A DNA stretch of 64,000 nucleotides from the IMG/VR virus record IMGVR_UViG_3300021399_000012, positions 1 through 64,000 of that record; one strand, given 5' to 3'. The notes beneath the pieces were generated by a model. The model had not been told where the DNA came from, ran no database searches, and was given only the letters and a program-made list of their open reading frames with translations. Positions 992 to 20,388 of the stretch are shown here, one piece after another; positions within the stretch are counted from its first letter, which is position 1; every line of letters begins with the position of its first letter. Source of the DNA: a virus (taxonomy: Duplodnaviria; Caudoviricetes). The position numbers and the translations under genes were made by a program.

Positions 992-1020
992 AGACCTTAG
1001 CAAGTCTATAAACTGCTAAA
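992..1020 (+). repeat. 29-bp dispersed element AGACCTTAGCAAGTCTATAAACTGCTAAA (copy 1)
   Basis: Just after stop codon, followed by T-run. Confidence 0.9.
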
Positions 1021-1024
1021 CCTT

Positions 1025-1051
1025 TTCGCAATTTTTTCTGGTTTATATATG
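1025..1051 (+). promoter_or_regulatory. phage promoter motif
   Basis: TTCGCA-N15-TATATG. Confidence 0.75.
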
Positions 1052-1083
1052 AACGGAATAATAAAACGAAGGAGGTAATTATT

Positions 1084-1161
1084 ATGTTAAGTATGGTATT
1101 TTTATGTATGATTATTATTGGAGCAGTAGGTTTATTCGCAACCGGTAATAAGAAAGATTAA
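1084..1161 (+). CDS. 25-aa membrane peptide (not in ORF track)
   Basis: MLSMVFLCMIIIGAVGLFATGNKKD; GGAGGT RBS; own promoter (1025-1051) and terminator (1172-1198). Confidence 0.65.
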   Translation: MLSMVFLCMIIIGAVGLFATGNKKD

Positions 1162-1171
1162 AGAAGTACCA

Positions 1172-1207
1172 AAGGGCTTGATAGATATTCAAGTCCTTCG
1201 TCTTTTT
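1172..1207 (+). terminator. intrinsic terminator
   Basis: AAGGGCTTGA/TCAAGTCCTT stem plus T-run. Confidence 0.7.
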
Positions 1208-1232
1208 CGCATTATATTCAGATACGTATATG
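1206..1232 (+). promoter_or_regulatory. phage promoter motif
   Basis: TTCGCA-N15-TATATG. Confidence 0.75.
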
Positions 1233-1267
1233 AGAAACACTATTTATATTAAAGGAGGGTTTATGTT

Positions 1268-1552
1268 ATGGGTAAACTTTTAAAGATCATTGTAGGTGTT
1301 ATTGTTACAGTATTTGTAATCAACATGGGTTGCGGCATTAAGCGATCTGTTGATGAGTATACTTATGATTTCGGTTATGGAACCGGAACTAGTCTACACT
1401 TCAGCAGCATCGGAATGCACGACGACGAAGCGTGTTTGATCATGAAGCTGAATTTTGACATTGACGACTATGCATTGGATTGCGGCAAAGTTTATATCCC
1501 AATGTTTGAGCATATTGGCTCTAACAATATAGGATATGTGTTAGAAAAGTAA
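1268..1552 (+). CDS. hypothetical protein with N-terminal TM/signal segment
   Basis: Hydrophobic N-terminus; RBS; cassette context. Confidence 0.75.
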   Translation: MGKLLKIIVGVIVTVFVINMGCGIKRSVDEYTYDFGYGTGTSLHFSSIGMHDDEACLIMKLNFDIDDYALDCGKVYIPMFEHIGSNNIGYVLEK

Positions 1553-1558
1553 TTTTCA

Positions 1559-1587
1559 AGACCTTAGCAAGTCTATAAACTACTAAA
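1559..1587 (+). repeat. 29-bp dispersed element (copy 2, TACTAAA variant)
   Basis: One substitution. Confidence 0.9.
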
Positions 1588-1624
1588 GCTTTTTGTAAAA
1601 TTATATTTATGGAGGTAAAAGAAT

Positions 1625-1777
1625 ATGTTTAAGACAACTAAAGGAATGAAAATCGCAGGGTATGTATTTATGGGATTGATTGGCGCATTAGGATCTATTT
1701 TGTGTCATGCAGCATCTGATGAGGAACTTAGTGCAGCTATTCATAAAAAGGTTAAAGAAAACCAGGCAAATAAGTAA
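1625..1777 (+). CDS. 50-aa hypothetical membrane protein (not in ORF track)
   Basis: MFKTTKGMKIAGYVFMGLIGALGSILCHAAS...; GGAGGT RBS. Confidence 0.65.
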   Translation: MFKTTKGMKIAGYVFMGLIGALGSILCHAASDEELSAAIHKKVKENQANK

Positions 1778-1799
1778 TTATATTTAAGGAGGTAGCATT

Positions 1800-2072
1800 A
1801 TGGAAGATGCAAAAATTGTAACAGAGGCAATTGCTAAGGTTGGTCAGTTAGAGCTTGGCTTTAACTCTTTGGCGGATTTGACACTCAAGAATGCCACTAG
1901 AACAGCTAAGCTTTCAAGAAAACTATCAGGCCGTACGCTCGTAGTGGCTGTTGGTATGTGTGTAATTGCAGGATTCGGGGCTTTCGCTATTGACGAGCAT
2001 GCTCGTAGACTTGAAAGACTTGAGGCATTAGCTGGTATATCTGGCAACAGTAATAAGGAGGAATCTAAATAA
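1800..2072 (+). CDS. hypothetical membrane protein
   Basis: GGAGGT RBS; TM segment LVVAVGMCVIAGFGAFAI. Confidence 0.75.
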   Translation: MEDAKIVTEAIAKVGQLELGFNSLADLTLKNATRTAKLSRKLSGRTLVVAVGMCVIAGFGAFAIDEHARRLERLEALAGISGNSNKEESK

Positions 2073-2857
2073 TGGGCTTAGACATGAGAAAAGTAACAAA
2101 AATGTTCAACACAGCCAAGGCATTTGCTAACTTATATCAGGATGACATTATGATTGGTTTTGGTATTGCAGGTTATATTTCGGCAATATCCGATGCTTTC
2201 AAAGCAGGACCTAAGATTGAGAGGGCTCTTGATAGAGGAGATAAAGCTGCGTATGATGATGGTAGAGAATACACTACTCAGGAAAAGATCATGGACACAT
2301 GGAAATACTGGACTCCAGTTGTTCTTAAAGGTACCGCTTCTACAGCATTAGTATTAAAAGGACATTCTATCACAGCAAAAAGAAATGCTGGTTTAGCATT
2401 AGCATGTTCAGCTGCACAGAATGCGCTTATCGACTACAAGGACACTGTTAAAGAAGTTCTTCCTGAAAAGAAGAAGAAAGATATTGATGAGAAATATCTT
2501 AAGAAGCGTATGTCCAGCATTGGAGCTGTATCTAGCGACAACCTGCATCACGAGCCTGGCGATGTTAAAATGTTTGACGAGGCAAGTGGTAGATTCTTCA
2601 TGTCAACAGTAAATAAGGTTAATGCAGCTTGGATTAAACTGAAGGACCGTGTCCAGGATGAAATGTACGTATCTGTAAATGACTTTTATTCAGAACTGGA
2701 TAATCCAGATTTGAAACCTTGTACATTAGGTGAGTCTAGAGGATGGTCTGTCGATAATTATATGGACGGCGACATGGAAGTTTACACATCAGGCGCAATT
2801 GTTGATGATTTAGGTCAACCTTGCATCTGTGTAGTATTTGATCATTTTGATATATAA
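2072..2857 (+). CDS. conserved phage protein with N-terminal membrane anchor (DUF6353-like, paralog of 4122..5129)
   Basis: Shares architecture with 4122..5129 (IxxGxGI TM, KR-NAxL); family name from memory, needs HMM check. Confidence 0.6.
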   Translation: MGLDMRKVTKMFNTAKAFANLYQDDIMIGFGIAGYISAISDAFKAGPKIERALDRGDKAAYDDGREYTTQEKIMDTWKYWTPVVLKGTASTALVLKGHSITAKRNAGLALACSAAQNALIDYKDTVKEVLPEKKKKDIDEKYLKKRMSSIGAVSSDNLHHEPGDVKMFDEASGRFFMSTVNKVNAAWIKLKDRVQDEMYVSVNDFYSELDNPDLKPCTLGESRGWSVDNYMDGDMEVYTSGAIVDDLGQPCICVVFDHFDI

Positions 2858-2862
2858 AGGAG

Positions 2863-2889
2863 TTCGCAAGAATTTCCATTATATATATG
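2863..2889 (+). promoter_or_regulatory. phage promoter motif
   Basis: TTCGCA-N15-TATATG. Confidence 0.7.
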
Positions 2890-2930
2890 AGCAGAAAGCT
2901 CGATATTCAAGAAAACGGAGGAATAGAATC

Positions 2931-3173
2931 ATGGAAAATGAAATCATGGAGACAACAGAAACAACTGAAATTGTAGAGTCTGGAAAGAAGTCAGGCAAGA
3001 CAACAGCGATTGTTATTGGACTTTCAGCAGTGGCAGGTGCAGCAGTATATAAGCTGGCTAGCTGGGGCTGGGGAAAGATTACAGAAGCAGTTCACAAGCA
3101 GGACGAAGCTAAGGCTCGCAAGGCACAGGCTGAATCTGAAGAGGAGCCAGATGAGGTTTCCGAGGAAGAGTAA
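2931..3173 (+). CDS. hypothetical membrane-anchored acidic protein
   Basis: Start moved to ATG 2931 after GGAGG RBS and promoter at 2863-2889. Confidence 0.75.
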   Translation: MENEIMETTETTEIVESGKKSGKTTAIVIGLSAVAGAAVYKLASWGWGKITEAVHKQDEAKARKAQAESEEEPDEVSEEE

Positions 3174-3270
3174 TCTTCTGTACAACTGAATATTGTGAAA
3201 GACGAGCGTTCGGAGTAATATCCGGCGCTCAAAGTCTTTTGCTTTTGTTATTATATTTAAGGAGGATAAG

Positions 3271-3882
3271 ATGGCAAACGACAAGAACATCATTCCTGGA
3301 AATAGTTTGAAATCCAGAGAAGCTGCTGAGAAGCCAAAGACAACAAAGGTTATTAAGGGCAAGGCAGAATTGAAAAAGAAATCTGCTGGTAGACAGCTTC
3401 TTAATAGTTTCATTTCAGAAGATGCCGGGAATGTTAAAGATTATATTATAGGCGACGTTATTGTCCCAGCTGTAAAAGACGTTATTCAGGACATTGTTAC
3501 TAATTCAATTAGTATGCTTTTATTTGGAGATACTAGAGGTGGAAACAAAAGAAACAATCCATCAGGCTCTTATGTATCTTACAACAACAGATATTTCGGA
3601 GGATCGAAGCCAAGAGCGGCTGCTTCATCATCTAACAATTTTAATATAGATGATATATTCTTTGAGACTCGAATGGATGCCGAAGAAGCACTCGATAATT
3701 TGGTTGAGATGATTGACCGTTATGGAAGTGTTACTGTTCTGGAATTATATGATTCAGTTGGATTACAGTGTCCGCCATATACATCTGATAAGTATGGATG
3801 GACAAGACTTGGTAATGCTGCTGTAAGAAGAACTAGAGATGGTTATATTCTAGAATTACCTAGACCAAAGTATCTTGATTAA
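3271..3882 (+). CDS. conserved hypothetical phage protein
   Basis: Long ORF with strong RBS. Confidence 0.8.
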   Translation: MANDKNIIPGNSLKSREAAEKPKTTKVIKGKAELKKKSAGRQLLNSFISEDAGNVKDYIIGDVIVPAVKDVIQDIVTNSISMLLFGDTRGGNKRNNPSGSYVSYNNRYFGGSKPRAAASSSNNFNIDDIFFETRMDAEEALDNLVEMIDRYGSVTVLELYDSVGLQCPPYTSDKYGWTRLGNAAVRRTRDGYILELPRPKYLD

Positions 3883-3889
3883 TTAGGAG

Positions 3890-4108
3890 GTGGTCCTCGT
3901 GAATGATAATTATACTATAGAATACATGAGAAAGAAAATATCAAAGGTATACCCTGGTATGAAATGGGTTAACAAATGTCAAGCGATGCACCCAGATCAA
4001 GTGTATGCAATATATCATAAATTCAAAGAAGAGGGCCGCTTCGACAAAAAGAAGAATAAACAAAAAGAAGAATATTATCAGTATAATATATTTGATTACA
4101 TAAAATAG
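3890..4108 (+). CDS. hypothetical protein
   Basis: ORF in operon; start may be GTG 3899. Confidence 0.65.
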   Translation: MVLVNDNYTIEYMRKKISKVYPGMKWVNKCQAMHPDQVYAIYHKFKEEGRFDKKKNKQKEEYYQYNIFDYIK

Positions 4109-4121
4109 GAGGAATTATATT

Positions 4122-5129
4122 ATGGATATCATGACAGTTTTAAAAACTGCTCAGAAAGCCACTAAATTCGGAGTTACAAAATATGCTTCAGAAATTCTTT
4201 TAGGGGCTGGTATTGGACTTGGACTCTGTGGAACAGTAGAGGCTTGCAAGTCAACATTAAAGCTTGAGGAGACTTTGACACCTCAGAAGAATAAAATTGA
4301 ATATATTAAGGGTTGCAGAGATGGAGTTATTGAGACTCCTGAGAAGTACAAGAACTATACAATTGCAGACTTTAAGAAGGATTTGACAAAGGCTTATTTG
4401 GAGACAGGCTATAAGGTTTGTAGATTATATTCTAAGCCTATCATTCTTGGAACTATTTCTATTGGTTCATTGCTGGGTTCTCATAAGATCCTTAATAAGA
4501 GAAACGCTATGCTGCTTACAGCTTATGTAACTTTGGATGAGACATTCACAGGTTATCGTTCTAGAGTGGTTGATGAGTATGGTGAAGCTGTTGATACTCA
4601 CCTATATTATAACACAGAGATTGACGAAGTAGAAGTTACTGAGGTTGATGAGAAGGGTAAGGAAAAGAAAGTTAAGAAGAAGGTTCAGTATGTAGACGAG
4701 AAGACAGCAAAGAAGAATCCTTATTCATTCTTATTTGACTGCGGTTCTGTATGCTGGAAGAATGACGCTGTTAGTAATCTTACATTCTTAAAGGCTCAGG
4801 AGAATTACGCCACACAGAAGCTGATTGCACACAAGAGACTGTTCTTATCAGAAGTATTGGATGCTCTTGGAATTGATGTTCAGGATGAAGAGACTCTCGA
4901 ATTCGCGCACAACTACGGTTGGACATACGGCGAAGGAGATAACTTTGTAGACTTCGGATTACGTAAGTACGAGGATCTTGACATGCCTGTATATTCTCAG
5001 GATAATGCTTATTGGCTTGACTTCAACTGCGATGGTTACATGTTTAAGAGACTGAGTCATCCTGAAGATGAGATCACTTGCAAAGTCGATATGCGAGACA
5101 TGTTCGACGGACAGCCAGTAGACTGCTAA
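4122..5129 (+). CDS. conserved phage protein with N-terminal membrane anchor (DUF6353-like)
   Basis: EILLGAGIGLG TM segment; paralog of 2072..2857. Confidence 0.6.
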   Translation: MDIMTVLKTAQKATKFGVTKYASEILLGAGIGLGLCGTVEACKSTLKLEETLTPQKNKIEYIKGCRDGVIETPEKYKNYTIADFKKDLTKAYLETGYKVCRLYSKPIILGTISIGSLLGSHKILNKRNAMLLTAYVTLDETFTGYRSRVVDEYGEAVDTHLYYNTEIDEVEVTEVDEKGKEKKVKKKVQYVDEKTAKKNPYSFLFDCGSVCWKNDAVSNLTFLKAQENYATQKLIAHKRLFLSEVLDALGIDVQDEETLEFAHNYGWTYGEGDNFVDFGLRKYEDLDMPVYSQDNAYWLDFNCDGYMFKRLSHPEDEITCKVDMRDMFDGQPVDC

Positions 5130-5145
5130 GTGGAGGTTATTTGAA

Positions 5146-5778
5146 ATGAATATTATTAAGTATATTTTAACATTTGGTGCTGGAGCCGCTTTAGGCTCTG
5201 GTGTCACTTATTATATTGTGTCTAAGAAGAAAGACAAAGAGTGCCAGGAAGACATTGATTCTATGAAGGCCGAGTATAGCAAAAGAATCGAAGCTGCTGA
5301 GAAGAAAACAGAAGAGATTCCATCAGAAGATGAGATGGCTGAAATGGAAGCACCAGATGATTCTGACATTCCTACTTTTCATCCAGATGTAGAGTTAGAT
5401 GATTCGGAGATTCCGGAGAGTGCTATTAGAACTGGTGTAAACTATGCTTCTAAATATATGACAGCCTCTAAGGACGTTCCTGAGAATGTAGTTCGTAGAA
5501 ACATTGTGCCTATCAGTATTGATGAGTATGATGAAGACGACGCATTTACAAAGCAGGAACTTATATTCTATGATGAAGATTCTATATTAGCCGATTCTTC
5601 AAGCGATGAAGTCCGCAGCTTAGATGATATCGGCGGTGTACCTATGTTAGATCATATCGGAGATGATGCTCAGGATATGTTATTCGTAAGAGACTTGGAT
5701 ACTGCTGTTGATTACTCTATTTCTATTATGCATACTTCCTACAACCGCATAATGGGATATATGGAGGAAGATGAGTAG
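5146..5778 (+). CDS. membrane-anchored acidic hypothetical protein
   Basis: N-terminal FGAGAALGSGVTY TM, acidic C-terminus. Confidence 0.75.
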   Translation: MNIIKYILTFGAGAALGSGVTYYIVSKKKDKECQEDIDSMKAEYSKRIEAAEKKTEEIPSEDEMAEMEAPDDSDIPTFHPDVELDDSEIPESAIRTGVNYASKYMTASKDVPENVVRRNIVPISIDEYDEDDAFTKQELIFYDEDSILADSSSDEVRSLDDIGGVPMLDHIGDDAQDMLFVRDLDTAVDYSISIMHTSYNRIMGYMEEDE

Positions 5779-6307
5779 AGAGTCTTACTTCGAATGGTTG
5801 ATATCTTTTGTTGATGACGGGCAAAATATACGAACGCACAAAAAGTTATTGAGTGAGCTGTTTGATACTGAATTTTATTGGACAGTTCCACTCGATAAAA
5901 ATCGTGCAAATGACGGACTTGGACTTCGAAGTCAATATGTAGATAGTTTGCCAAAGAGAATCCGTGAGCGTGAAATAAATGAACTTGATGGTGCTTGTTC
6001 TGTATTAGAAATGATGGTGGCATTGTCAAGTAGAATGGAACATACTATTATGTTTGACACTGCTTATGGAGATAGAACAGCGATATGGTTCTGGATGATG
6101 ATAGAGAATTTACAACTTTTATCATTTGTAGACAATCGATATGACCATGTCGAAGTTGGGGGAAGACTTGTAAAATTTCTGCAGAGATCATATAGTTCAG
6201 ATGGTCGTGGTGGTTTGTTCTGGATACCAGATACAAAACATGATATGCGTAAACCTGAAATATGGTATCAAATGAACTGGTGGGTCGATTACTTACTAGA
6301 TCAATAA
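5771..6307 (+). CDS. conserved hypothetical protein upstream of replicase
   Basis: Overlapping start/stop with previous gene; long ORF. Confidence 0.75.
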   Translation: MSRESYFEWLISFVDDGQNIRTHKKLLSELFDTEFYWTVPLDKNRANDGLGLRSQYVDSLPKRIREREINELDGACSVLEMMVALSSRMEHTIMFDTAYGDRTAIWFWMMIENLQLLSFVDNRYDHVEVGGRLVKFLQRSYSSDGRGGLFWIPDTKHDMRKPEIWYQMNWWVDYLLDQ

Positions 6308-6340
6308 TGATTAAAATATTTTGGAAGGAGAGTACATCAA

Positions 6341-9300
6341 ATGTTGGACTTCTTTGTTATATCTCAGAAATCTACTAAACGTGGGTTCGTTGAGATATAT
6401 CCTAAGTTCATTGTTCGTACCTCCAAAGATTTAATGATTCGAGGTGGTGATTTCTACGCCATATGGGACGAGTCAAACAAACAGTGGAGTACGGATGAAG
6501 AACGTGCGTTACAACTTATAGACGAAGCTCTGGACGACTATGTTAATGAACATGCAGGAACTATAACTGATAATATCAGTGTATTGCACATGTGGGATGC
6601 AGAAACTGGTATGATAGATAGATGGCATAAGTATTGCCAAAAACAGATGCGAGATAAATATCAAGCATTGGATGAGAATTTGGTGTTTTCGAATACTGAG
6701 CTGTCTAAAGAATTATATTCTTCTAAACGATTACCTTATGCGTTGGAAGATGGTGATATAAGTGCTTGGAACGAGTTGCTCGATGTATTATATTCCAAAG
6801 AAGAGAAGAAGAAACTTGAGTGGAGTATAGGCTCTGTTGTTTCTGGTGAAAGTAAGAATCTTCAAAAGTTTGTAGTATTATATGGTAGTGCCGGAACAGG
6901 TAAATCTACTGTATTAAATATTATGCAGAAGCTGTTTCAGGGTTACTATTCTGTATTTGATGCTAAGTCATTGGGAAGTGCTAATAATGCTTTCGCGTTA
7001 GAGGCTTTCAAGACAAACCCATTGGTAGCAATCCAACATGATGGTGACTTGAGTAAAATTGAAGATAATACTAGACTGAATAGTTTGGTATCTCACGAGT
7101 TAATGACAGTAAATGAGAAATTCAGACCCACGTATACAAATCGATTTAATTCATTCTTATTCATGGGTACTAATAAACCAGTAAAGATTACAGATGCTAA
7201 GTCTGGTATCTTGAGACGTCTTATAGATGTTTCTCCAACTGGAAATAAAGTACCAGCTAGAAAGTATAAAGAATTGATGAAGAAGATTGATTTCGAACTG
7301 GGTGCTATAGCGAAGCACTGCATGGATGTATATGTTAATGACCCAGGTGCGTATGATGCTTACGTGCCAACAAACATGATGGATGAATCCAATGATTTCT
7401 ATAACTTTATCATTGATAACTATGATATATTTAGACGTCAGGATTCAGTAACATTAAAGCAAGCTTGGGAATTATATCAGGAATGGTGTACGGATTCGAA
7501 TATACCATACCCATATACAAAACGTGTGTTCAAGAGTGAACTTAAAAACTATTTTGAGAACTTTGATGAAAGGAGGAAGGACGGTCTTAGAAATGTATAT
7601 TCTGGATTTACGTACGATAAGTTTACGTATAAGGCAAAAAACAAAGACGATGAAGCAGAACCTATTAAGCCGTGGCTTGCGTTTGCTGAGATACCATCGG
7701 CGTTTGATGCTGCTTGTGCGGATTTGCCTGCGCAATATGCGACTGCGAATGAAATACCAGAAGGAAAATGGGCTGATGTAACTACGACATTAAAAGATAT
7801 AGACACATCAAAGTTACATTATGTAAAAGTCCCATTGAATCATATCGTAATTGATTTCGATATTCCAGACGAAAATGGAAATAAATCTTTCGAAAAGAAT
7901 TTTGAAGCTGCTTGCCAGTGGCCGGAAACATATGCAGAACTTAGTAAATCGGGTTCCGGTATACATTTACATTATATTTATAATGGAGATCCTTTACTAT
8001 TATCGAGAGTATATGGTGATCATATAGAAATAAAAGTCTATAATGGTAAATCATCCTTGCGAAGGAAGCTTACGAAATGTAATAATCTTCCAATAGCTAG
8101 TATTTCATCAGGGTTACCTCTAAAAGAAGAAAAACCAAAAAAGAGGATTGATAAGATGATAAATATGGATGATGCTGCTTGGCAGAAGAAGATACTTATA
8201 CCAAGTATTGATAAGTGCCTAAAGAAAGAACATCACCATGCTACAAAACCAGAAGTAGATTTCATAAAGAAAATTTTGGACGATGCTTATGATTCAGGAA
8301 GGTTTTATGATGTTACACCATTAAGACCAGCTATATTAACATTTGCAGCTAGGAGCTCTCATCAGAGTGACTACTGTATAAAACTTGTTAATTCTATGAA
8401 GTTTAAGTCCGAAAGTATTAGTGAAGTATCGGATGCTGTATACGGAGAAAAGCCTATAGCGTTTTACGACGTTGAGGTTTTCCCGAATCTATTCCTTATA
8501 AACTGGAAACTGGCTGGTGATAACCCGGTTGTTAGGATGATAAATCCAACTCCAGCAGACGTAGAGGCACTCATACAGAATTATAGGCTTATCGGATACA
8601 ACTGTAGACGATATGATAATCATATTCTATGGGCTAGAATGATGGGTTATACAAATGAACAATTGTATAATTTGTCACAGCGTATAGTAAATGGTAGTAA
8701 GAACGCCATGTTTGGCGAAGCTTATAATTTATCATATACTGACGTTTACGATTTCTGTTCAACAAAGCAATCTTTGAAGAAATGGGAAATCGAATTGGGT
8801 ATAACACACCACGAGCTGGGTCTTCCATGGGATCAACCAGTTGCTGAAGAGTTATGGCCAAAAGTTGCGGAATATTGTGACGATGACGTTATTGCTACAG
8901 AAGCTGTATTCAATGCTAGAAAGGCTGACTTTATAGCTAGAGAAATATTGGCAGATGTGGCTGGTATGACTGTGAATTCGTCAACTAACTCATTAACTAC
9001 TAGAATTATATTCGGTAAGGATTTACAGCCTCAATCGGAATTTAATTATAGATTCATGGGCGAGGATGTTCCGGATGACGAATTATATACTATAAAGTAT
9101 GAGAAAGATAAACTAGTTCGTTCTGATAAAGTATCAAACAGTGATTATATTCTTTTCAGAAAGAGCGACAACAAGCCAGTGTTCAGAGGTTATACTTTTG
9201 ATCATGGTAGGTCATTATATCGTGGATTCGAAGTAGGCGAGGGCGGATTCGTATGGGCTGAACCAGGTATGTACGGACGTGCTATAACATTTGACGTTGC

Positions 9301-10375: not shown

Positions 10376-10404
10376 AAAAATTATATTAAGAAGGAGAATA
10401 GACA

Positions 10405-10881: not shown

Positions 10882-11043
10882 TTATTCTTAATTAGGACTT
10901 AGGGCTCATTATATTTGATGGGCCCTACTAGTTCTTAAAGTAATAGGGGAAGTTAAAAATTGAATATGGACAGAAACTTACGAGTACAAAATGTGAGGAT
11001 ATTGCATTTTATAACTTGAGGATATATTATATATCCGGAAAGG

Positions 11044-11667
11044 ATGAAAATGAAAAAACGACTAACCCAATCACTAGTGCTTATTGTGGCATTAGCAGGA
11101 CTAATCACTCAGGTATCTATAACAAAAAATGTACAAAGAAAGGAACTAATAGAAAAAACAAAGAATTTACCATATTCTTATGAAGATATCATGGTACCAC
11201 GAAATATCAAAGAAATGTTAACAGTGACGGAACAAGATGTACAAATCGTTGCGGCACAAATGGAACCAGAGATACCTAATCCAGAACTACTAGATACTTA
11301 TATTTCTAGAGGATGGTCAGAAGAACATTTCTGGACAGATGTAGATATGATAGCAAAAATGACTATGGCTGAGGCAGAAGGAGAATCTGATCTTGGCAAA
11401 CGTTATGTCATTGATGTTATTTTAAATCGTGTGGATAGCCACAAGTGGCCTAATGATATCTGCAGCGTATTGTATGAATGCGGGCAATTTACAAGTATGG
11501 ATAATGGCCGTTATGACAATGCATATGTCGACGACCATATTAAGAATTTAGTTGTTGAGGAATTATATTCTAGAACAAACTATGAGGTAATGTATTTCAA
11601 AACGGATGGTTACTTCTTATCCCATTTGGATGTGGAACAAATCGGTAATCATTTCTTTTCGAAATAA
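11044..11667 (+). CDS. SleB/Hydrolase_2-like cell wall hydrolase with N-terminal signal/TM
   Basis: AEAEGE..GK..V..VILNRV, GQF and IGNHFF motifs. Confidence 0.8.
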   Translation: MKMKKRLTQSLVLIVALAGLITQVSITKNVQRKELIEKTKNLPYSYEDIMVPRNIKEMLTVTEQDVQIVAAQMEPEIPNPELLDTYISRGWSEEHFWTDVDMIAKMTMAEAEGESDLGKRYVIDVILNRVDSHKWPNDICSVLYECGQFTSMDNGRYDNAYVDDHIKNLVVEELYSRTNYEVMYFKTDGYFLSHLDVEQIGNHFFSK

Positions 11668-11687
11668 CAAGGAAGGAGTGACTCTGC

Positions 11688-11885
11688 ATGGAAAAACTTA
11701 TATTTAGTTGTGAGTTTCCAGCAGATTCCTCTGAAGCTGAGAGACTTACAGATTGGTTAATCACAAATCGTGTTAGAAGAGTAGTTACATCATCTAGTTT
11801 CAAGAAGGGTGTTATATTCACATCATACTTTATAGAATGCACAAATAAAATGCAACTTAAAAGATTATTAGACCTTTTCGCATAA
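11688..11885 (+). CDS. hypothetical protein
   Basis: GGAAGGAG RBS. Confidence 0.65.
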   Translation: MEKLIFSCEFPADSSEAERLTDWLITNRVRRVVTSSSFKKGVIFTSYFIECTNKMQLKRLLDLFA

Positions 11886-11903
11886 TTTACAGTCCAGATT
11901 ATA
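11877..11903 (+). promoter_or_regulatory. phage promoter motif (variant)
   Basis: TTCGCA-N15-ATTATA(GG). Confidence 0.5.
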
Positions 11904-11938
11904 GGAAACAATAATTAATATTATTGGAGGGCGACATT

Positions 11939-12046
11939 ATGGAAAAGGAAGAAACCAGATGGGAACAAATTACTACAGTTGATAATAACGGTTTAGTGAT
12001 TTGTATCGAGTGGGTTCCTGTAAAGGTCCCGGTAGAGAAAAATTAA
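11939..12046 (+). CDS. 35-aa hypothetical protein (not in ORF track)
   Basis: MEKEETRWEQITTVDNNGLVICIEWVPVKVPVEKN; GGAGG RBS; followed by 29-bp element. Confidence 0.55.
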   Translation: MEKEETRWEQITTVDNNGLVICIEWVPVKVPVEKN

Positions 12047-12056: not shown

Positions 12057-12085
12057 AGACCTTAGCAAGTCTATAAACTGCTAAA
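12057..12085 (+). repeat. 29-bp dispersed element (copy 3)
   Basis: Exact copy. Confidence 0.9.
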
Positions 12086-13754: not shown

Positions 13755-13755
13755 T

Positions 13756-15552: not shown

Positions 15553-15765
15553 ATGGAGGAAAACATTATGGGAACAAGTATTATTAGTATTGTTATAGGT
15601 GCAATTATGATTGGATTTTGCATTCTTGAATTTTACGCGCTAAGTAAAATGGATCTTAGCAAGTGTTATTCAGGAGCTGTAAGAGCCGCATATGGTATAC
15701 TTACAACAATAGGTATATTTGGAACTGTACTTGTACAATCCGGTATTTATGGATTGTTGTATTAG
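15553..15765 (+). CDS. two-TM hypothetical membrane protein
   Basis: Cassette context; start may be ATG 15568 after GGAGG. Confidence 0.7.
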   Translation: MEENIMGTSIISIVIGAIMIGFCILEFYALSKMDLSKCYSGAVRAAYGILTTIGIFGTVLVQSGIYGLLY

Positions 15766-15770: not shown

Positions 15771-15799
15771 AGACCTTAGCAAGTCTTTAAACTGCTAAA
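15771..15799 (+). repeat. 29-bp dispersed element (copy 4, GTCTTT variant)
   Basis: One substitution. Confidence 0.9.
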
Positions 15800-15804: not shown

Positions 15805-15831
15805 TTCGCAATATTTACAGTTTCATATATG
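15805..15831 (+). promoter_or_regulatory. phage promoter motif
   Basis: TTCGCA-N15-TATATG. Confidence 0.7.
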
Positions 15832-15873: not shown

Positions 15874-15902
15874 AGACCTTAGCAAGTCTTTAAACTGCTA
15901 AA
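15874..15902 (+). repeat. 29-bp dispersed element (copy 5, GTCTTT variant)
   Basis: One substitution; no RBS-led ORF upstream. Confidence 0.9.
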
Positions 15903-15942
15903 ACTTTTTTAGGTAATTATATTATAAGGGAGGTAACTTAAT

Positions 15943-16626
15943 ATGATTAAAATCAACGGAAAGACATTGTCAACATTAACTTGCATTGGTGGTGCTGTAT
16001 CGCTTGGAGGATTGATCACATACTTATGTGTGGATTCCGCTAAGAAAAGCAAGGCTGCTAAAGAGGAAAGAGAAAAGAAGTATCAGTATGAAAGAAAGGG
16101 TATCCTGGCGACGCTGGATGCTAATCCTATTCCAGAAGATATCGATATCTCCAACGCTACATTTGCTAATAAGGCATTTACAGGCGAGGAAAAGGCAGCA
16201 GCTAGAAAGGTTATCAAATATTATATTGATATCGCTGAGTGCGCAGAGAAGTCTATCAGGAATTCAAAGGACACAATTGAAATCCAGAATAGATTACTCG
16301 ACAAGTACCTTGACAATGTAAACCAGGCTAAAAACATTATATCTGATTTCACAAATCCTAATTTCTCAGCTGACATCATTAAGAGTGTGCTCGTGTACCA
16401 GTCATCTGTTCTTGCAGACATTGCAAAGGCAGCGGAGGAAGCACAAGCCCGTAAGGACGAGATGGATCGTCTTGATAGAGAGTATCAGATGGAGAAGTTA
16501 AGACTTGATAGAGAGGCAGCAGCTGAACAGCAGAAGCTCGAAGCATTAGCAGTTGCAGCTAAGGCAATGAGCTCCAACGTAAATGTACAGGTTGGAGATG
16601 CTAATGTAACTAAGGAGGAATCTTAA
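15943..16626 (+). CDS. membrane-anchored coiled-coil hypothetical protein
   Basis: N-terminal hydrophobic segment; GGAGGT RBS. Confidence 0.75.
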   Translation: MIKINGKTLSTLTCIGGAVSLGGLITYLCVDSAKKSKAAKEEREKKYQYERKGILATLDANPIPEDIDISNATFANKAFTGEEKAAARKVIKYYIDIAECAEKSIRNSKDTIEIQNRLLDKYLDNVNQAKNIISDFTNPNFSADIIKSVLVYQSSVLADIAKAAEEAQARKDEMDRLDREYQMEKLRLDREAAAEQQKLEALAVAAKAMSSNVNVQVGDANVTKEES

Positions 16627-16779
16627 TGAAGAACAAATTAACTTTACAAGATTTCTGTGTTCAGGTGCTTGGCATGTCTGTTCGTAGTTTCTCTCATATG
16701 AATAAGAGACAGAAGGTGGAGGCCATAAAGCAATACAACAATTATATTAATAAAAAGAACTAGGAGGAATTGCTGATTT

Positions 16780-16983
16780 ATGGCATATATTAATCTTTCG
16801 GCAGTTAGAGCTTCCGACTATAAGCACGGACCCGCTATTAAAACTAATGGCAAAACTAGCGAAGAATGCTATGCTGAATATATGGAAGCAAGGAAGAATA
16901 ACACATTAGACACTCTCGATGTCGAGGTTCGAGAAATGGCTAAAGCTTATGCTAGAAAGCATGGCAAAGTTATTCTAAAATAA
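16780..16983 (+). CDS. hypothetical protein
   Basis: RBS upstream; terminator downstream. Confidence 0.65.
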   Translation: MAYINLSAVRASDYKHGPAIKTNGKTSEECYAEYMEARKNNTLDTLDVEVREMAKAYARKHGKVILK

Positions 16984-16984
16984 T

Positions 16985-17020
16985 GAGATTGGTCTGACAA
17001 TTGTCAGGCCTTCTCGTTTT
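16985..17020 (+). terminator. intrinsic terminator
   Basis: GGTCTGACA/TGTCAGGCC stem plus T-run. Confidence 0.7.
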
Positions 17021-17219
17021 TACCACATATAACGATTGGTAAGTTTTTATATAGGAGGTGTTTTATGTCTTATATAGTATACAAAGTAAATGATGACGGT
17101 GAAGCGTCAGATCCGCTAGGTGTGGTTGATGATAGAGACATAGCATTTCAAATCTATTGGCGGATGTTTAATGAAGGAACTGTACTACTAATACCTAATG
17201 AATAGAAAGGCTGAAAATA

Positions 17220-17462
17220 ATGGGCTATTTTATTGTATTACTTATTATATTTGGGGTGTTGCTTATTGCTGGAATAAAGACCAGACTAGAGCTGCTAAGG
17301 CAAATAAAAATAATAAATAAAAAAATTGATAATAATAGAATTAAATATTGTAAACTGTTAAACGAGGTCCATGAGCTGGATACAAAGATTTCAATCATGG
17401 AGCTTGGGGATGATATCAATTTTATGACAGATATTATGGAGGACGAAAATGATAACAACTAA
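17220..17462 (+). CDS. hypothetical membrane protein
   Basis: N-terminal TM. Confidence 0.65.
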   Translation: MGYFIVLLIIFGVLLIAGIKTRLELLRQIKIINKKIDNNRIKYCKLLNEVHELDTKISIMELGDDINFMTDIMEDENDNN

Positions 17463-17724
17463 AATTATATTTTTACTTTTTGGTGCTGCTCTTGTATTCG
17501 TAATTGGTTATTGGTTTGGAGCAAAGCGAGCATATAAAAAATGTACGGACATTATAAACCAAATGACTGAAGACATTAAGCTTACAGTTGGTGGTGAAGA
17601 GGCGCTGCGATCTTTTGTTGATGAGCATGAAATAACCAATGACTCCAAGCCAGAAGCTGATATAATCGATATACACGAGTGGAGAAGGAGACGATATGGA
17701 ATTAATGGTAAAGATGAGAGATAG
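17449..17724 (+). CDS. hypothetical membrane protein
   Basis: N-terminal TM, overlapping previous gene. Confidence 0.65.
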   Translation: MITTKIIFLLFGAALVFVIGYWFGAKRAYKKCTDIINQMTEDIKLTVGGEEALRSFVDEHEITNDSKPEADIIDIHEWRRRRYGINGKDER

Positions 17725-17864
17725 ATGCCTGTCGAGTGTCAAGGACTGGGCTCATAATCACGCCATAGATAAGGAATCCATAATAACTGGTGAGGTTGAA
17801 GATGATGAGTATATTTCATTAAAGGAACTAAACTCATTTCTTGCTAGGATGGGTGGTGATTTAA

Positions 17865-18323
17865 ATGAACGCTGAGGCATGGGTTGATGGTAGTTTCAAT
17901 GCTAAGTCAGGCACTTATGGTTCTGGCATTATATTAGTAATGGATGACGGTCATACAGTAGAGCAAATTGAATCTGGTGATAGTGAGATGTACAAATCCA
18001 GTCGTAATGTTACTGGAGAAGTATTTGCTGCTTTATCGGCAGTTGATATCGCTAGACGATACAAAGTAAAACACTTGACAATCCATTACGATTATGCTGG
18101 AATAGAAAAGTGGGCCACAGGCGAATGGAAAGCAAATAACGAGCTTACACAAATGTATAGTGGTATAATGCATCAATTATATTCCGTTAAATATGTCGAC
18201 TTTGACAAGGTTAAGGCTCACTCTGGAATATTGATGAATGAATGGGCTGACGAATTAGCCAAAATGGCATGCGGATTGAAGGAGAAAAATCATGATGAAC
18301 AACAAAATAAATCAAAAATTTAA
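17865..18323 (+). CDS. rnhA: ribonuclease HI
   Basis: WVDGS, GEV, IHYDY, KVKAHSG..MNEWADELAK catalytic motifs. Confidence 0.85.
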   Translation: MNAEAWVDGSFNAKSGTYGSGIILVMDDGHTVEQIESGDSEMYKSSRNVTGEVFAALSAVDIARRYKVKHLTIHYDYAGIEKWATGEWKANNELTQMYSGIMHQLYSVKYVDFDKVKAHSGILMNEWADELAKMACGLKEKNHDEQQNKSKI

Positions 18324-18489
18324 TTGTAATAAATGTACACACTCTGGTGTATGCATGTATAAAGATAATGTTCCTATTGTGGATGTGAATATTGGTAATG
18401 CAGATGATATTCCGGAGAAGTCTCCATTTATTATTACTATGAACTGTGACCAATTTATTCCACGCGGAGTAGATTTCAATATTAGATAG
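18292..18489 (+). CDS. small Cys-containing hypothetical protein
   Basis: CxxCxHxxxC motif; operon context. Confidence 0.6.
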   Translation: MMNNKINQKFNCNKCTHSGVCMYKDNVPIVDVNIGNADDIPEKSPFIITMNCDQFIPRGVDFNIR

Positions 18490-18503
18490 GGAGGATTGAT
18501 AAG

Positions 18504-18899
18504 ATGATAAAACTGGGTAATATAAATATAGATGATATGAATAGAATACAACTTGTAGCCATACGCGTTAATAGCGAAGACGATGGTATATTTACGTTCA
18601 GTTTGAAATATCGTGTTGCTTACAAAGATGGTAAGATAGAAGAAATCGAATTCCCGAGAGTTACAAATCCTTTTTATACGCATTACATTGCAATTCATCA
18701 GGAGCCATGGGATGATAAACACATCGAAACTCTGTCTCAATGCACATTAAAAATGGCTGATGATAAGGAAAAAGGCATCAAATATTGTATAGCACAGAAG
18801 ATCATAAAAGAGGCTGATCCTGTAGAAATGACTATGGATGAGATTGAGGCCGCTCTTGGTAAGCGTGTTAAAATAGTTAATAAAGGAGACAAGAAATGA
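18504..18899 (+). CDS. hypothetical protein
   Basis: GGAGGA RBS; C-terminal MTMDEIEAALGKRVKIV. Confidence 0.7.
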   Translation: MIKLGNINIDDMNRIQLVAIRVNSEDDGIFTFSLKYRVAYKDGKIEEIEFPRVTNPFYTHYIAIHQEPWDDKHIETLSQCTLKMADDKEKGIKYCIAQKIIKEADPVEMTMDEIEAALGKRVKIVNKGDKK

Positions 18900-19171
18900 A
18901 TAAAACATATAAAGACTTATCTAAAGAAACTATTGAGATGCTAGAACAGAACCACTACAATGTGACATACTGCTCGATAAACAATACAGAGCACTATGCT
19001 CATTGTGTCCTTACATACTACGATGATCCAACAGTGCAGATCGATATTATGTTAAAAGGTGTTGGTGACTCTGCAATCATGGCGTCTAGCGACGGTAGAC
19101 CATTCGTATTCACTACTGAGGAAATAGAAGCAGTAATACGAGTAGTTAAAGAATTGTCAGGTGATATGTAA
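18896..19171 (+). CDS. hypothetical protein
   Basis: ATGA overlap with previous gene. Confidence 0.65.
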   Translation: MNKTYKDLSKETIEMLEQNHYNVTYCSINNTEHYAHCVLTYYDDPTVQIDIMLKGVGDSAIMASSDGRPFVFTTEEIEAVIRVVKELSGDM

Positions 19172-19395
19172 TGGTATTAAAGCTGACTGGTAAAAAGAAA
19201 AGAATATTAAAGAGAATAGAACTGTTAAGAGCTGGTAAGATTGATAGCTTAACAGAATCTGATAGATTATATTTTAAAAAGAATTTCACAGATGCTGAGA
19301 AAATTGCAGTATACTCTAAAATATTCACCGTGGTTCCGGAAGAAGAAATAACAGACTGTACGGACGGAATTGTATTTTATGAGGAGGATAAGTGA
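19171..19395 (+). CDS. hypothetical protein
   Basis: TAATG overlap with previous gene. Confidence 0.65.
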   Translation: MVLKLTGKKKRILKRIELLRAGKIDSLTESDRLYFKKNFTDAEKIAVYSKIFTVVPEEEITDCTDGIVFYEEDK

Positions 19396-19721
19396 TGGAT
19401 AGTAGTAATCTTAAAGAGGTATATTTCGATGAATATTGCCCGAAGTGTAAGAACAAAGATCTAAAAGAAAATCAGGATCCTTGTCATGACTGTCTTCAGA
19501 ATCCAGGTAATATTGATAGTCATAAGCCAGTGCATTATCAGGAAAAGGTGTAGCCTATGAGTGTGGATGTCTGTAAGAACGGAAAACCAGATGGTAAACA
19601 TTATATTTGTACATTGTCAGGAAATGAATGTCCATTCTGGTTTAAAGAAAATTTAATAGATAAAGAAACAGGTGCATATAAAGGTATAAATATATGCATC
19701 GATTTCAAACCTTATTCAAAT

Positions 19722-19748
19722 CACGCATAATTTTCACTTCTTTCTATA
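19722..19748 (+). promoter_or_regulatory. phage promoter motif (variant)
   Basis: CACGCA-N15-TCTATA. Confidence 0.5.
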
Positions 19749-19754
19749 GAAAGG

Positions 19755-19991
19755 ATGGTGAATAACATGGAAAGTAAGGATTTAGTTATTACAGGACTTG
19801 ATTGGCAAACAATTTATGACGTATCAACAATGCTGGTACAATGTGACCAAGTAGCGTGGGAAGCGGTGAAAGGTCTGGATGTATCGGATGAAACGAAGCA
19901 TGAATTGGAAAAGAAAATCAATGGCATTTTAACTTTTAACAAACAGTTAATAAACTATCTTAAGGAAAACAAACCGAGTGAGGAGTCTTAA
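19755..19991 (+). CDS. hypothetical protein
   Basis: Downstream of promoter variant 19722-19748. Confidence 0.65.
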   Translation: MVNNMESKDLVITGLDWQTIYDVSTMLVQCDQVAWEAVKGLDVSDETKHELEKKINGILTFNKQLINYLKENKPSEES

Positions 19992-20011
19992 CAGGCTCCA
20001 AACTCTTTTCC

Positions 20012-20125
20012 CTGGCTGTGGTGTAATGGTAACAGGCTACTTGGGCGCCCATGTTGGATTATTAGGTATACATAATAATCTAACACTTGAGAGTAGAAAT
20101 TCAGGTTCGATTCCTGGCGGCCAGA
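20012..20125 (+). ncRNA. tRNA-like RNA with 50-nt expanded anticodon loop (pseudo-tRNA)
   Basis: Acceptor CTGGCTG/CGGCCAG+A, D arm GTGT-AATGGTA-ACAG, anticodon stem CTACT/AGTAG, T arm TCAGG-TTCGATT-CCTGG at canonical spacing; loop carries a 13-bp hairpin. Confidence 0.7.
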
Positions 20126-20128
20126 CTA

Positions 20129-20155
20129 TTCGCATTATTTTCTAGTGCTAATATG
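20129..20155 (+). promoter_or_regulatory. phage promoter motif
   Basis: TTCGCA-N15-AATATG. Confidence 0.65.
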
Positions 20156-20185
20156 AAAAATTATTTAAAAACGGAGGGATTAAGT

Positions 20186-20353
20186 ATGAACAAGAAAGAA
20201 AAGAGTATTACTGTTAGAAGAGAAAAAGATGGAACAATAAAAACAGAATTCGTTAATTGTACAGTATACGATGACGAGATGATGGATCTTTTACTCGAAG
20301 CAGCTAAGATGTATCTTGTTGTGGAACGTGAGAACTCGAAAAAGAAGAAATAA
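20186..20353 (+). CDS. hypothetical protein
   Basis: Start moved to ATG 20186 after GGAGG; promoter 20129-20155; 29-bp element after stop. Confidence 0.7.
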   Translation: MNKKEKSITVRREKDGTIKTEFVNCTVYDDEMMDLLLEAAKMYLVVERENSKKKK

Positions 20354-20359
20354 TTTTAA

Positions 20360-20388
20360 AGACCTTAGCAAGTCTATAAACTGCTAAA
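20360..20388 (+). repeat. 29-bp dispersed element (copy 6)
   Basis: Exact copy. Confidence 0.9.

What the first reader, a model, noticed from the sequence alone, without database searches (positions are those of the whole stretch)
992..20388. Six dispersed copies of a 29-nt H-type pseudoknot standing where terminators normally stand
Seen: AGAC-C-TTAGCA-A-GTCT-ATAAAC-TGCTAA-A at 992, 1559, 12057, 15771, 15874 and 20360. AGAC/GTCT and TTAGCA/TGCTAA are interleaved stems in the S1-S2-S1'-S2' order of an H-type pseudoknot. The GTCTTT variant in copies 4 and 5 extends stem 1 to 5 bp. Five of the six copies lie 5-10 nt after a stop codon and all precede a T-run, replacing the ordinary hairpins used in sister cassettes. 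Known: type III toxin-antitoxin antitoxins (ToxI, AntiQ, CptI) are short pseudoknot RNAs, and phage phiTE escapes ToxIN with pseudo-ToxI repeats. Inference: a pseudoknot terminator specific to the phage RNAP, a 3'-end protective element, or an antitoxin mimic. A DNA operator (TTAGCA-N11-TGCTAA) or cassette recombination site is also possible.
Basis: partly seen in the sequence, partly recalled or inferred. Interest (0 to 1): 0.78.

Follow-up and report, generated by a model that had tools for sequence, protein, structure and literature searches.

The report
Coremin-like RNA pseudoknot after phage genes
The 29-base repeat is a real RNA pseudoknot from a widespread, uncatalogued phage family that sits just after stop codons and closely resembles the plant-virus 'coremin' RNA that stops RNA-degrading enzymes and ribosomes, so it is more likely a gene-boundary roadblock than a terminator for the phage's own polymerase.

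Summary
There are six near-identical copies in the window and nine in the 72-kb phage genome, all on the + strand and all intergenic. The proposed H-type pseudoknot is also confirmed. Two degenerate scans of IMG/VR found about 60 homologous elements in unrelated phage contigs, and both stems covary there. The loop residues and the hexamer UAAACU do not vary. Cultured carriers include Arthrobacter phage Amigo, Clostridium phage phiCT19406B, Roseophage SIO1 and Lentibacter phages ICBM1-3. Across the family the knot starts 4-9 nt (mode 5) after a stop codon. What follows it varies: a ribosome-binding site, a promoter, a hairpin terminator or a tRNA gene. A T-run follows in only about a quarter of cases.

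No Rfam family matches. The element lines up in register with the coremin motif (xrRNA-C) and its Watson-Crick variant, but it has an 8-nt loop, a 6-bp stem 2 and no second hairpin.

My best reading is a directional RNA roadblock that insulates gene boundaries. In this phage it was amplified as a knot-plus-promoter module. Five other carriers lack the YonO-like polymerase, so a polymerase-specific terminator is not supported. The antitoxin-mimic idea has no support. The DNA-operator idea is contradicted. The function is untested. Earlier notes of this scan report the same family in other genomes.

The parts
992..1020 (+). Pseudoknot copy 1. Stem 1 is AGAC/GTCT and stem 2 is TTAGCA/TGCTAA. It lies 6 nt after the stop of ORF 821-985 and abuts the promoter-like element at 1025.
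   Evidence: 47 bits with model R1
1559..1587 (+). Pseudoknot copy 2. It has TACTAA, which makes a C-A mismatch in stem 2; the strain variant L019 has TGCTAA. It lies 6 nt after the stop of ORF 1268-1552 and 37 nt before the first gene of the replication operon (1625-12046).
12057..12085 (+). Pseudoknot copy 3. It lies 10 nt after the stop of ORF 11939-12046 and abuts the promoter-like element at 12091.
15771..15799 (+). Pseudoknot copy 4 (T variant in loop 3). It lies 5 nt after the stop of ORF 15568-15765 and abuts the promoter-like element at 15805.
15874..15902 (+). Pseudoknot copy 5. It has no upstream ORF and lies about 40 nt after the end of the promoter-like element that begins at 15805. 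It is 40 nt before the gene at 15943. Its downstream flank is a promoter-like element that has lost the TTCGCA part.
20360..20388 (+). Pseudoknot copy 6. It lies 6 nt after the stop of ORF 20186-20353 and 27 nt before the first gene of the operon that starts at 20416.
1025..1055 (+). One of 19 copies of the repeated promoter-like element TTCGCAWTWT...TATATR. This element directly follows 6 of the 9 knots. Other copies in the window start at 71, 458, 757, 1206, 12091, 15805, 20129 and 30968.
435..457 (+). Ordinary hairpin terminator (GGGGC/GCCCC plus T-run) in a sister cassette, in the position the knot holds elsewhere. Similar hairpins lie at about 730-756 and 1172-1203.

Best explanation
The repeat encodes a compact H-type RNA pseudoknot: stem 1 of 4 bp, a one-nucleotide loop 1 (C), stem 2 of 6 bp, a junction A, and loop 3 NUAAAC. 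It belongs to a widespread phage family that is an extended, Watson-Crick-paired relative of the coremin motif (xrRNA-C and xrRNA-WCC) of eukaryotic RNA viruses. I infer that it works as a mechanically robust, directional roadblock in the messenger RNA. It sits as close to the upstream stop codon as a terminating ribosome allows, so translation does not unwind it. It would then stop machines that travel 5' to 3': an RNase J-type exonuclease, and ribosomes that run past the stop codon. That would shield the downstream cistron, operon or tRNA precursor and uncouple it from the fate of the upstream one. In this phage the knot was amplified together with the early promoter-like element as a 'knot-promoter' module. 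The module replaces hairpin terminators at about a third of the early cassette boundaries. It also heads the three long middle operons, where the knot would become the stable 5' cap of the processed operon mRNA. The RNA fold, the family, the placement and the likeness to coremin are shown here. The roadblock activity and its direction are inferred.
For: Fold. With stem 1 and the loops fixed, 14 of 20 IMG/VR hits had fully complementary stem-2 arms of six different kinds, against a chance rate of about 0.003 each. With stem 2 fixed, 24 of 39 hits had 4 of 4 stem-1 pairs, in more than 10 pair combinations. On a 41-sequence alignment 97% of cells pair, 9 of 10 pairs show compensatory change, and 0 of 500 shuffles reach the observed values.

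Likeness to coremin. The element aligns in the same register. Both have a C-G loop-closing pair (40 of 41 here). The loop begins with an invariant C and ends with A. Two nucleotides later comes AAACU, and UAAACU is invariant here. A16-A20 are essential in BNYVV (PMC6546385, read). The stem-2 pairs fall where xrRNA-WCC pairs (PMC10321173). Coremin stalls Xrn1 and scanning ribosomes and stimulates frameshifting (PMC10520033; PMC10321173).

Placement. In 27 of 44 family instances a same-strand ORF ends 4-9 nt upstream, with a mode of 5. The spacers in this phage are 5-10 nt. Flanking gene families are unrelated to each other. In Amigo and in L022 the knot stands directly in front of tRNA genes.

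This phage. Copies 1559, 15874 and 20360 lie 27-40 nt before the first gene of long operons, with no intact promoter-like element between knot and gene. Copies 15874 and 70086 follow a promoter-like element with no ORF between them. That arrangement makes sense for a 5' stabiliser but is futile for a terminator.
Against: Coremin needs a second hairpin directly downstream for Xrn1 resistance, and the phage family has none consistently. The strict YGAD/YGNNAD loop consensus is not met, because U rather than G is the second loop base. In 6 of 9 copies the knot lies upstream of the next promoter-like element, so it is present only in read-through transcripts. A weaker family member occurs in an E. 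coli phage, and to my knowledge that host has no RNase J, so RNase J cannot be the only target. In this phage all 9 copies are followed by a T-run, which would also fit a terminator role. My alignment A2 was filtered for pairing; the unbiased numbers are those.
Confidence: 0.45

Rival explanations
1. In this phage the pseudoknot plus the following U-tract acts as an intrinsic terminator, possibly leaky or regulated. It would replace the hairpin of ordinary terminators, and the long operons behind copies 1559, 15874 and 20360 would be expressed by read-through or antitermination.
For: All 9 copies are followed by CTTTT(T) within 1-3 nt and stand where hairpin plus T-run terminators stand in sister cassettes. 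The one promoter-like copy that has neither a knot nor a hairpin upstream (20129) lacks the T-run, so the T-run goes with the structure. The layout promoter, short gene, knot, long operon resembles lambda-type attenuated operons.
Against: Across the family only 10 of 42 members have 4 or more T within 16 nt, and many are followed directly by a ribosome-binding site, a promoter, a separate hairpin terminator or a tRNA. The plain hairpin folds are weak, at -2.7 to -9 kcal/mol and not different from shuffles, against -10.7 to -13.2 for the true terminators. The U-run starts 2-4 nt after stem 2 and is short. The T-run in the promoter-less copies can be inherited from a knot-promoter module with a deletion. 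An efficient terminator at 1559 would silence the DNA polymerase operon.
Confidence: 0.2
2. The knot is a 3'-to-5' exonuclease barrier, a 3' cap that stabilises the upstream gene's mRNA after termination or processing.
For: The knot hugs the upstream stop codon rather than the downstream start. In Amigo, RNase P cleavage of the adjacent tRNA would leave the SSB mRNA ending 2 nt after the knot. It takes the place of terminator hairpins, which are known to protect 3' ends (established knowledge).
Against: In the L022 tRNA array and in copies 15874 and 70086 there is no upstream ORF to protect. The known relatives of the fold block 5'-to-3' movement (PMC6546385, PMC10520033). Several family members have their own terminator hairpin further downstream.
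Confidence: 0.12
3. The knot is a trans-acting decoy RNA, such as a type III antitoxin mimic or a sponge for another host RNA-binding defence or housekeeping protein. Nine copies would raise the dose.
For: It is a small pseudoknot like ToxI. Sequence conservation is very high. The copy number is expanded in this phage. It occurs inside tRNA arrays, where it would be released as a small RNA. An identical 29-mer occurs in an unrelated contig of 21% GC.
Against: The copies are dispersed, not tandem. To my knowledge type III antitoxins are system-specific, whereas this sequence is conserved across phages of Actinobacteria, Firmicutes and Proteobacteria. No Rfam family matches. A decoy would not need a fixed distance from the stop codon.
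Confidence: 0.06
4. The knot is a ligand-sensing riboswitch of the preQ1-I architectural type.
For: It has the same H-type topology, with an A-rich loop 3 (UCU-AUAAAC-U against UCU-AUAAAAAAC-U in the B. subtilis aptamer, which I recall from memory).
Against: The Rfam PreQ1 models do not match even at E up to 10 on 61 nt. Loop 2 is a single A, so there is no pocket or specifier C. Flanking genes are unrelated to each other.
Confidence: 0.03
5. The repeat is a DNA-level site: an operator (TTAGCA-N11-TGCTAA), the promoter of the phage RNAP, or a dedicated cassette recombination site.
For: The copies are perfectly conserved and lie upstream of genes. The strain variant L019 has an extra cassette bounded by two knot-promoter modules, so the repeats do mark mosaic joints.
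Against: Both interleaved stems covary while the 'spacer' is invariant, which is the reverse of an operator, and interleaved stems cannot form in duplex DNA. All copies share one orientation. Other carriers lack the RNAP. There are no copies in the late region from 20.4 to 70 kb. The mosaic joints are explained by ordinary homologous recombination between 60-70-bp repeats.
Confidence: 0.03

Closest known systems
Coremin motif (xrRNA-C) of beny-, cucumo- and many other eukaryotic RNA viruses (Dilweg et al. 2019, PMC6546385; 2023, PMC10520033)
   Same: Both have a short 5' hairpin of 3-4 bp with a C-G loop-closing pair. The loop starts with C and ends with A. Two nucleotides later comes the conserved AAACU, and the loop interacts with the nucleotides right after it. 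Both lie in 3' UTRs or intergenic regions just after ORFs.
   Different: The phage form has an 8-nt loop that does not fit YGAD/YGNNAD (U, not G, at the second position). It has six Watson-Crick pairs instead of a non-canonical contact. It has no obligatory second hairpin. It occurs in DNA phages, whose hosts have no Xrn1. Its function is untested.
Watson-Crick coremin variant xrRNA-WCC (Dilweg et al. 2023, PMC10321173; one natural case in Sanxia picorna-like virus 5)
   Same: Stem 2 is antiparallel and Watson-Crick, between the hairpin loop and the nucleotides following AAA(C), in the same register. It is an H-type pseudoknot that stimulates frameshifting as well as resisting Xrn1.
   Different: xrRNA-WCC has a 4-nt loop, a 3-bp stem 2 and G as loop 1, and it still needs hp2 for Xrn1 resistance. 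The phage form has 6 bp, C as loop 1 and no hp2.
T2/T4 gene 32 mRNA pseudoknot (translational operator); recalled from memory
   Same: It is a phage-encoded compact H-type pseudoknot with a single-nucleotide loop 1 crossing a 6-7-bp stem 2 and a 6-7-nt loop 3.
   Different: The gene 32 knot is one copy, upstream of one specific gene, and nucleates gp32 binding. Here the flanking genes are unrelated, and the element is anchored to the upstream stop codon, not to the downstream start.
Luteovirid frameshift pseudoknots (BWYV, PLRV) and the MuLV read-through pseudoknot; recalled from memory and from PMC10321173
   Same: They are similar in size, have an A-rich loop in the minor groove of stem 1, and show the same 5-8-nt spacing from the codon in the ribosomal A site.
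   Different: There is no slippery heptamer before the copies here. In this phage all three frames hit stop codons inside the knot (my reading of the sequence), so no recoding product is possible.
Intrinsic (hairpin plus U-tract) terminators of the sister cassettes
   Same: They occupy the same position, a few nucleotides after a stop codon, followed by a T-run and directly upstream of the next promoter-like element.
   Different: The terminators keep only their structure, and their sequences differ from cassette to cassette. The knot is conserved base for base, its stems are weak as plain hairpins, and its relatives elsewhere mostly lack a T-run.

Membership tests
Coremin motif (xrRNA-C) | 5' hairpin of 3-4 bp with a C-G loop-closing pair | tested here: met
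   Stem 1 is 4 bp and covaries. The closing pair is C-G in 40 of 41 sequences and the outermost pair is the weakest. For the requirement see PMC6546385.
Coremin motif (xrRNA-C) | Loop consensus YGAD (4 nt) or YGNNAD (6 nt) | tested here: not met
   The loop is 8 nt, C-UKAGCA-A. The first base (C) and the last base (A) fit, but the second base is U, not G. 7- and 8-nt loops were tolerated in the BNYVV context (PMC10520033).
Coremin motif (xrRNA-C) | Conserved spacer with essential A16-A20 (AACUA) at a fixed distance from hairpin 1 | tested here: met
   UAAACU is invariant in all 41 aligned sequences and lies in the same register. The next base is G (paired) in most sequences and A in copy 1559, L021 and L025.
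Coremin motif (xrRNA-C) | Second hairpin (hp2, at least 4 bp) directly after the spacer | tested here: not met
   None of the nine copies has one, and it is inconsistent across the family.
Coremin motif (xrRNA-C) | Stalls a 5'-3' exoribonuclease at its 5' edge | not testable with these tools
   This needs RNase J1 or Xrn1 digestion assays.
xrRNA-WCC (Watson-Crick coremin) | Antiparallel Watson-Crick stem 2 between the hairpin-1 loop and the spacer nucleotides that follow AAA | tested here: met
   Stem 2 is 6 bp, 98% of cells pair and 5 of 6 pairs show compensatory change. In the unbiased scan 14 of 20 hits were fully complementary.
Intrinsic terminator | Stable GC-rich hairpin immediately followed by a U-tract | tested here: inconclusive
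   A T-run of 4-6 follows 2-4 nt after stem 2 in 9 of 9 copies here but in only 10 of 42 in the family. Hairpin energy is weak. Pseudoknot energy cannot be computed with these tools.
Type III antitoxin RNA (ToxI, CptI, AntiQ) | Tandem array of repeats next to a ToxN-family toxin gene, processed by the toxin | tested here: not met
   The copies are dispersed over 20 kb and the genome ends, and the closest pair is 103 bp apart with a promoter-like element between them. No Rfam family matches. I did not search for toxin genes.
preQ1-I riboswitch | Match to the Rfam PreQ1 model, and a loop 2 carrying the ligand-pairing C | tested here: not met
   There is no match at E up to 10 on 61 nt. Loop 2 is a single A.
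CRISPR repeat or anti-repeat (solitary repeat unit) | The same sequence occurs as a spaced array in a prokaryotic genome | tested here: not met
   Neither the motif nor a two-copy array pattern matched anything in 185,579 species genomes.

The most novel reading that the evidence does not exclude
DNA bacteriophages carry true exoribonuclease- and ribosome-resistant RNAs of the coremin type. A 29-nt knot placed after stop codons would stop RNase J-type 5'-3' decay and run-on ribosomes. It would cut long phage transcripts into knot-capped, separately stable units, including tRNA precursors. This would be the same device that eukaryotic RNA viruses use against Xrn1, shared or reinvented across virus realms.
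Probability: 0.35. Interest if true: 0.85.

Novelty: new variant of a known kind. Interest (0 to 1): 0.74.

Why it matters
Exoribonuclease-resistant RNAs are so far described only in eukaryotic RNA viruses. A coremin-like knot in DNA phages of at least three bacterial phyla would extend that principle to bacteria. It would also give a 29-nt, sequence-defined part for insulating cistrons. It could explain how phages set different stabilities for genes on one long transcript. The family is absent from Rfam 15, and no paper I could search links coremin to phages. The idea is directly testable, because cultured carriers exist: Amigo, SIO1, ICBM1-3, phiCT19406B and E. coli phage flopper.

Tried and rejected
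(1) Promoter of the YonO-like RNAP (32325-35525; phrog_4291, E = 2e-297). I rejected this because both stems covary, there are no copies in the late region, and five other carriers lack the enzyme.

(2) CRISPR repeat or tracrRNA anti-repeat mimic, suggested by the ...CTAAAAC end and TAGCAAGT. Two scans of species genomes found no array.

(3) Frameshift or read-through signal. The spacing fits, but there is no slippery site and stop codons occur in all three frames inside the knot.

(4) A feature inherited within the FP_oengus-like lineage. Model R1 finds no copy in FP_oengus or in five related contigs. FP_oengus instead has five conserved-loop hairpin terminators.

(5) A cis-regulator of one gene family. 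The flanking genes do not cluster.

(6) boxA, tRNA anticodon-arm, pistol-ribozyme and integron attC likenesses. I considered these from memory and dropped them, because the shared letters lie in covarying or variable positions or the architecture differs.

(7) A tenth copy at 31578-31614 (24 bits). It lies inside an ORF and its stems do not pair, so I treat it as a false positive.

(8) Transcript evidence.

(9) A literature search by sequence words found nothing relevant.


Full report
**What the window is.** The window is the first 64 kb of a 72,052-bp IMG/VR phage genome with a 127-bp direct terminal repeat. All genes lie on the + strand. GC is about 36%, and GGAGG ribosome-binding sites are strong. 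The genome is syntenic with Faecalibacterium phage FP_oengus. Shared features are DUF6353 genes, a fused primase-DNA polymerase, a helicase, an exonuclease, a YonO/RdRP-like two-barrel RNA polymerase with a C-terminal HTH, terminase, a protease-capsid fusion and a tape measure (bioRxiv 10.1101/842583). The nearest helicase relatives are only about 60% identical.

The 29-mer occurs six times in the window with at most one mismatch, and no shuffle produced a match. The genome holds nine copies in all, every one on the + strand.
- Spacers from the upstream stop codon are 6, 6, 10, 5 and 6 nt in the window and 6 and 6 nt outside it.
- Copies 15874 and 70086 have no upstream ORF. Each lies about 40-45 nt after the end of a repeated promoter-like element.
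- That promoter-like element (TTCGCAWTWT...TATATR, 19 copies) directly follows six of the nine knots. In the other early cassettes an ordinary GC-rich hairpin plus T-run stands at that place.
- By my count, the early cassette array that spans the genome ends has five boundaries with the knot and about nine with hairpins.
- Copies 1559, 15874 and 20360 have no intact promoter-like element behind them. They lie 27-40 nt before the first genes of the long operons 1625-12046, 15943-20353 and 20416 onwards.

**The fold is real.** The nine copies are too alike to test pairing, so I looked elsewhere.
- The exact motif occurs in two metagenome contigs that are strain variants of this phage. It also occurs in an unrelated contig of 21% GC.
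- An IMG/VR scan that fixed stem 1 and the loops but left both stem-2 arms free gave 20 hits. In 14 the arms were fully complementary. The pairs were of different kinds: TGAGCA/TGCTCA, TGAGTA/TACTCA, TGAACA/TGTTCA, TCAGCA/TGCTGA, TAGATA/TGTCTA and GGTTCA/TGAACT.
- The converse scan fixed stem 2 and left stem 1 free. It gave 39 hits, of which 24 had 4 of 4 pairs and 14 had 3 of 4, again with many pair types such as ACAC/GTGT, ACTC/GAGT, AGTC/GACT, TGTC/GACA and ATTC/GAAT.
- Chance complementarity is about 0.003 for the six-base arms and 0.02 for the four-base arms.
- On a 41-sequence alignment 97% of cells pair, 9 of 10 pairs show compensatory change, no shuffle reaches the observed values, and slid registers fall to 20-40%. 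That alignment was filtered for pairing, so the two scans are the unbiased evidence.
- The invariant positions are the loop-1 C, the last base of stem 2's 5' arm, and UAAACU.

**Family-wide anatomy.**
- Among 44 non-redundant instances, a same-strand ORF ends 4-9 nt upstream in 27, with a mode of 5.
- The flanking proteins form no common family.
- What follows the knot varies: a ribosome-binding site 12-36 nt away, a sigma-70-like promoter within 10 nt, a separate hairpin terminator, or a tRNA gene. Only 10 of 42 have four or more T within 16 nt.
- In Arthrobacter phage Amigo the knot follows the SSB gene and ends 2 nt before tRNA-Gly. In contig L022 two knots sit inside a tRNA array.
- Other cultured carriers are Clostridium phage phiCT19406B, Lentibacter phages ICBM1-3, Roseophage SIO1 (after ribonucleotide reductase) and Celeribacter phage P12053L. 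E. coli phage flopper has a weaker match.
- Five carriers tested have one or two copies and no homologue of the YonO-like polymerase.
- A covariance model finds only the nine copies in this genome and none in FP_oengus-like relatives. This phage therefore acquired and amplified the element rather than inheriting it.

**What it resembles.** No Rfam 15 family matches, even at E up to 10 on a 61-nt slice. Earlier notes of this scan pointed me to the coremin motif, and I checked that against the papers.
- In BNYVV the element is a 3-4-bp hairpin with a C-G closing pair and a YGAD loop. Then comes a spacer, GUUAAACUAC, in which A16-A20 are essential, and then a second hairpin (PMC6546385).
- It stalls Xrn1 and scanning ribosomes (PMC10520033) and stimulates frameshifting. 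A Watson-Crick variant pairs loop bases 6-8 with spacer bases 20-18 (PMC10321173).
- The phage knot aligns in the same register. It has the C-G closing pair, a loop that starts with C and ends with A, two nucleotides, then AAACU. Its stem 2 starts at the positions that pair in the Watson-Crick variant and runs four pairs further.
- It differs in having an 8-nt loop, U instead of G at the second loop position, and no obligatory second hairpin.
- I found no paper that links coremin to phages.

**How it most likely works.** The fold, the orientation, the tight but variable-tailed distance from the stop codon, and the variety of downstream features fit a self-contained RNA element that belongs to the gene boundary.
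- By analogy with coremin, I infer a directional roadblock for 5'-to-3' machines. These would be RNase J-type exonucleases, which to my knowledge are present in Firmicutes, Actinobacteria and Rhodobacteraceae, and ribosomes.
- A 5-nt spacer puts the knot at the mRNA entry of a ribosome that holds the stop codon in its A site. That is as close as it can sit without being unwound.
- This reading explains the knots in front of tRNA genes. It also explains the three knots at the heads of long operons and the two ORF-less 'promoter, leader, knot' arrangements, which would yield knot-capped stable RNAs.
- It does not explain why six knots lie upstream of the next promoter-like element, unless read-through transcripts matter.
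- The T-run after every copy in this phage can be inherited. The promoter-less copies align to knot-promoter modules that carry deletions. The strain variant L019 shows that whole cassettes are gained between two such modules.
- A terminator role of knot plus U-tract in this phage remains a live rival. So does a 3' cap role.
- The antitoxin-mimic, riboswitch and DNA-site readings are weak, for the reasons given under the rival explanations.

**Verdict.** The function is unproven. The most probable function is a coremin-like roadblock or insulator (0.45). A terminator specific to the phage polymerase is not supported. The same family has been noted before in this scan in other genomes. The coremin comparison came from the notes and was then checked against the papers.

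Noticed in passing
window 43506-59072 (copies at 43506, 45439, 46821, 48038, 53179, 58188, 59062; one more at genome position 67740, outside the window): TTCAAAATRGGG occurs eight times, only in the late (structural) region and only on the + strand, both between and inside genes. FP_oengus has a similar over-represented TCAAAATGGA in 7 copies. This is a candidate late promoter of the YonO-like RNA polymerase.
   Followed up: partly
window 71-30998 (starts at 71, 458, 757, 1025, 1206, 12091, 15805, 20129, 30968) and genome 69600-71996: A promoter-like element, TTCGCAWTWT-N-TATATR, occurs in 19 copies and does not fit sigma-A spacing. In many copies TATATA runs straight into the GGAGG ribosome-binding site. 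Related elements (CGCGAAA...TTTATGGAG) occur in FP_oengus and in contig L016. The copy at 30968 precedes the exonuclease-RNAP operon.
   Followed up: partly
window 30246-30470: Seven direct repeats of TTTCTGACACTT lie in a gene-free gap upstream of the exonuclease-RNAP operon. Relatives have different iterons at the same place (L014, L018, L010, L012). This is a likely replication origin.
   Followed up: no
L013 (FP_oengus) 4860-4900, 5132-5172, 8672-8712, 18518-18558, 22851-22891: Five hairpin terminators share a conserved 11-nt loop (GGAGAAATCTG) and have covarying stems, each followed by a T-run. They are this relative's counterpart of the repeated boundary element.
   Followed up: partly
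L021 (RRZU012977586.1) 2161-2189, minus strand: An unrelated contig of 21% GC carries a knot that differs from the window's majority form only at its two variable positions. It shares no protein similarity with this phage. The knot lies at the start of a roughly 250-nt gene-free stretch that ends in a hairpin terminator, upstream of a Nudix gene.
   Followed up: partly
L019 118-473 against window 1053-991: A strain variant carries an extra small-gene cassette inserted between two knot-promoter modules, and a different gene after the third knot. The modules therefore mark mosaic joints.
   Followed up: partly
window 61046-61420: 30-bp periodic repeats (GCTAATTATATTGATGC..., AGCTAACTATGTTGATACAGAGAC) lie inside the 1170-aa tail fibre gene.
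   Followed up: no
window 32325-35525: A 1066-aa YonO/RdRP-like two-barrel RNA polymerase with a sigma-region-4-like C-terminal HTH. Homologues occur in Arthrobacter, Gordonia, Streptomyces, Lactococcus and Faecalibacterium phages. To my knowledge its promoters are unknown.
   Followed up: partly
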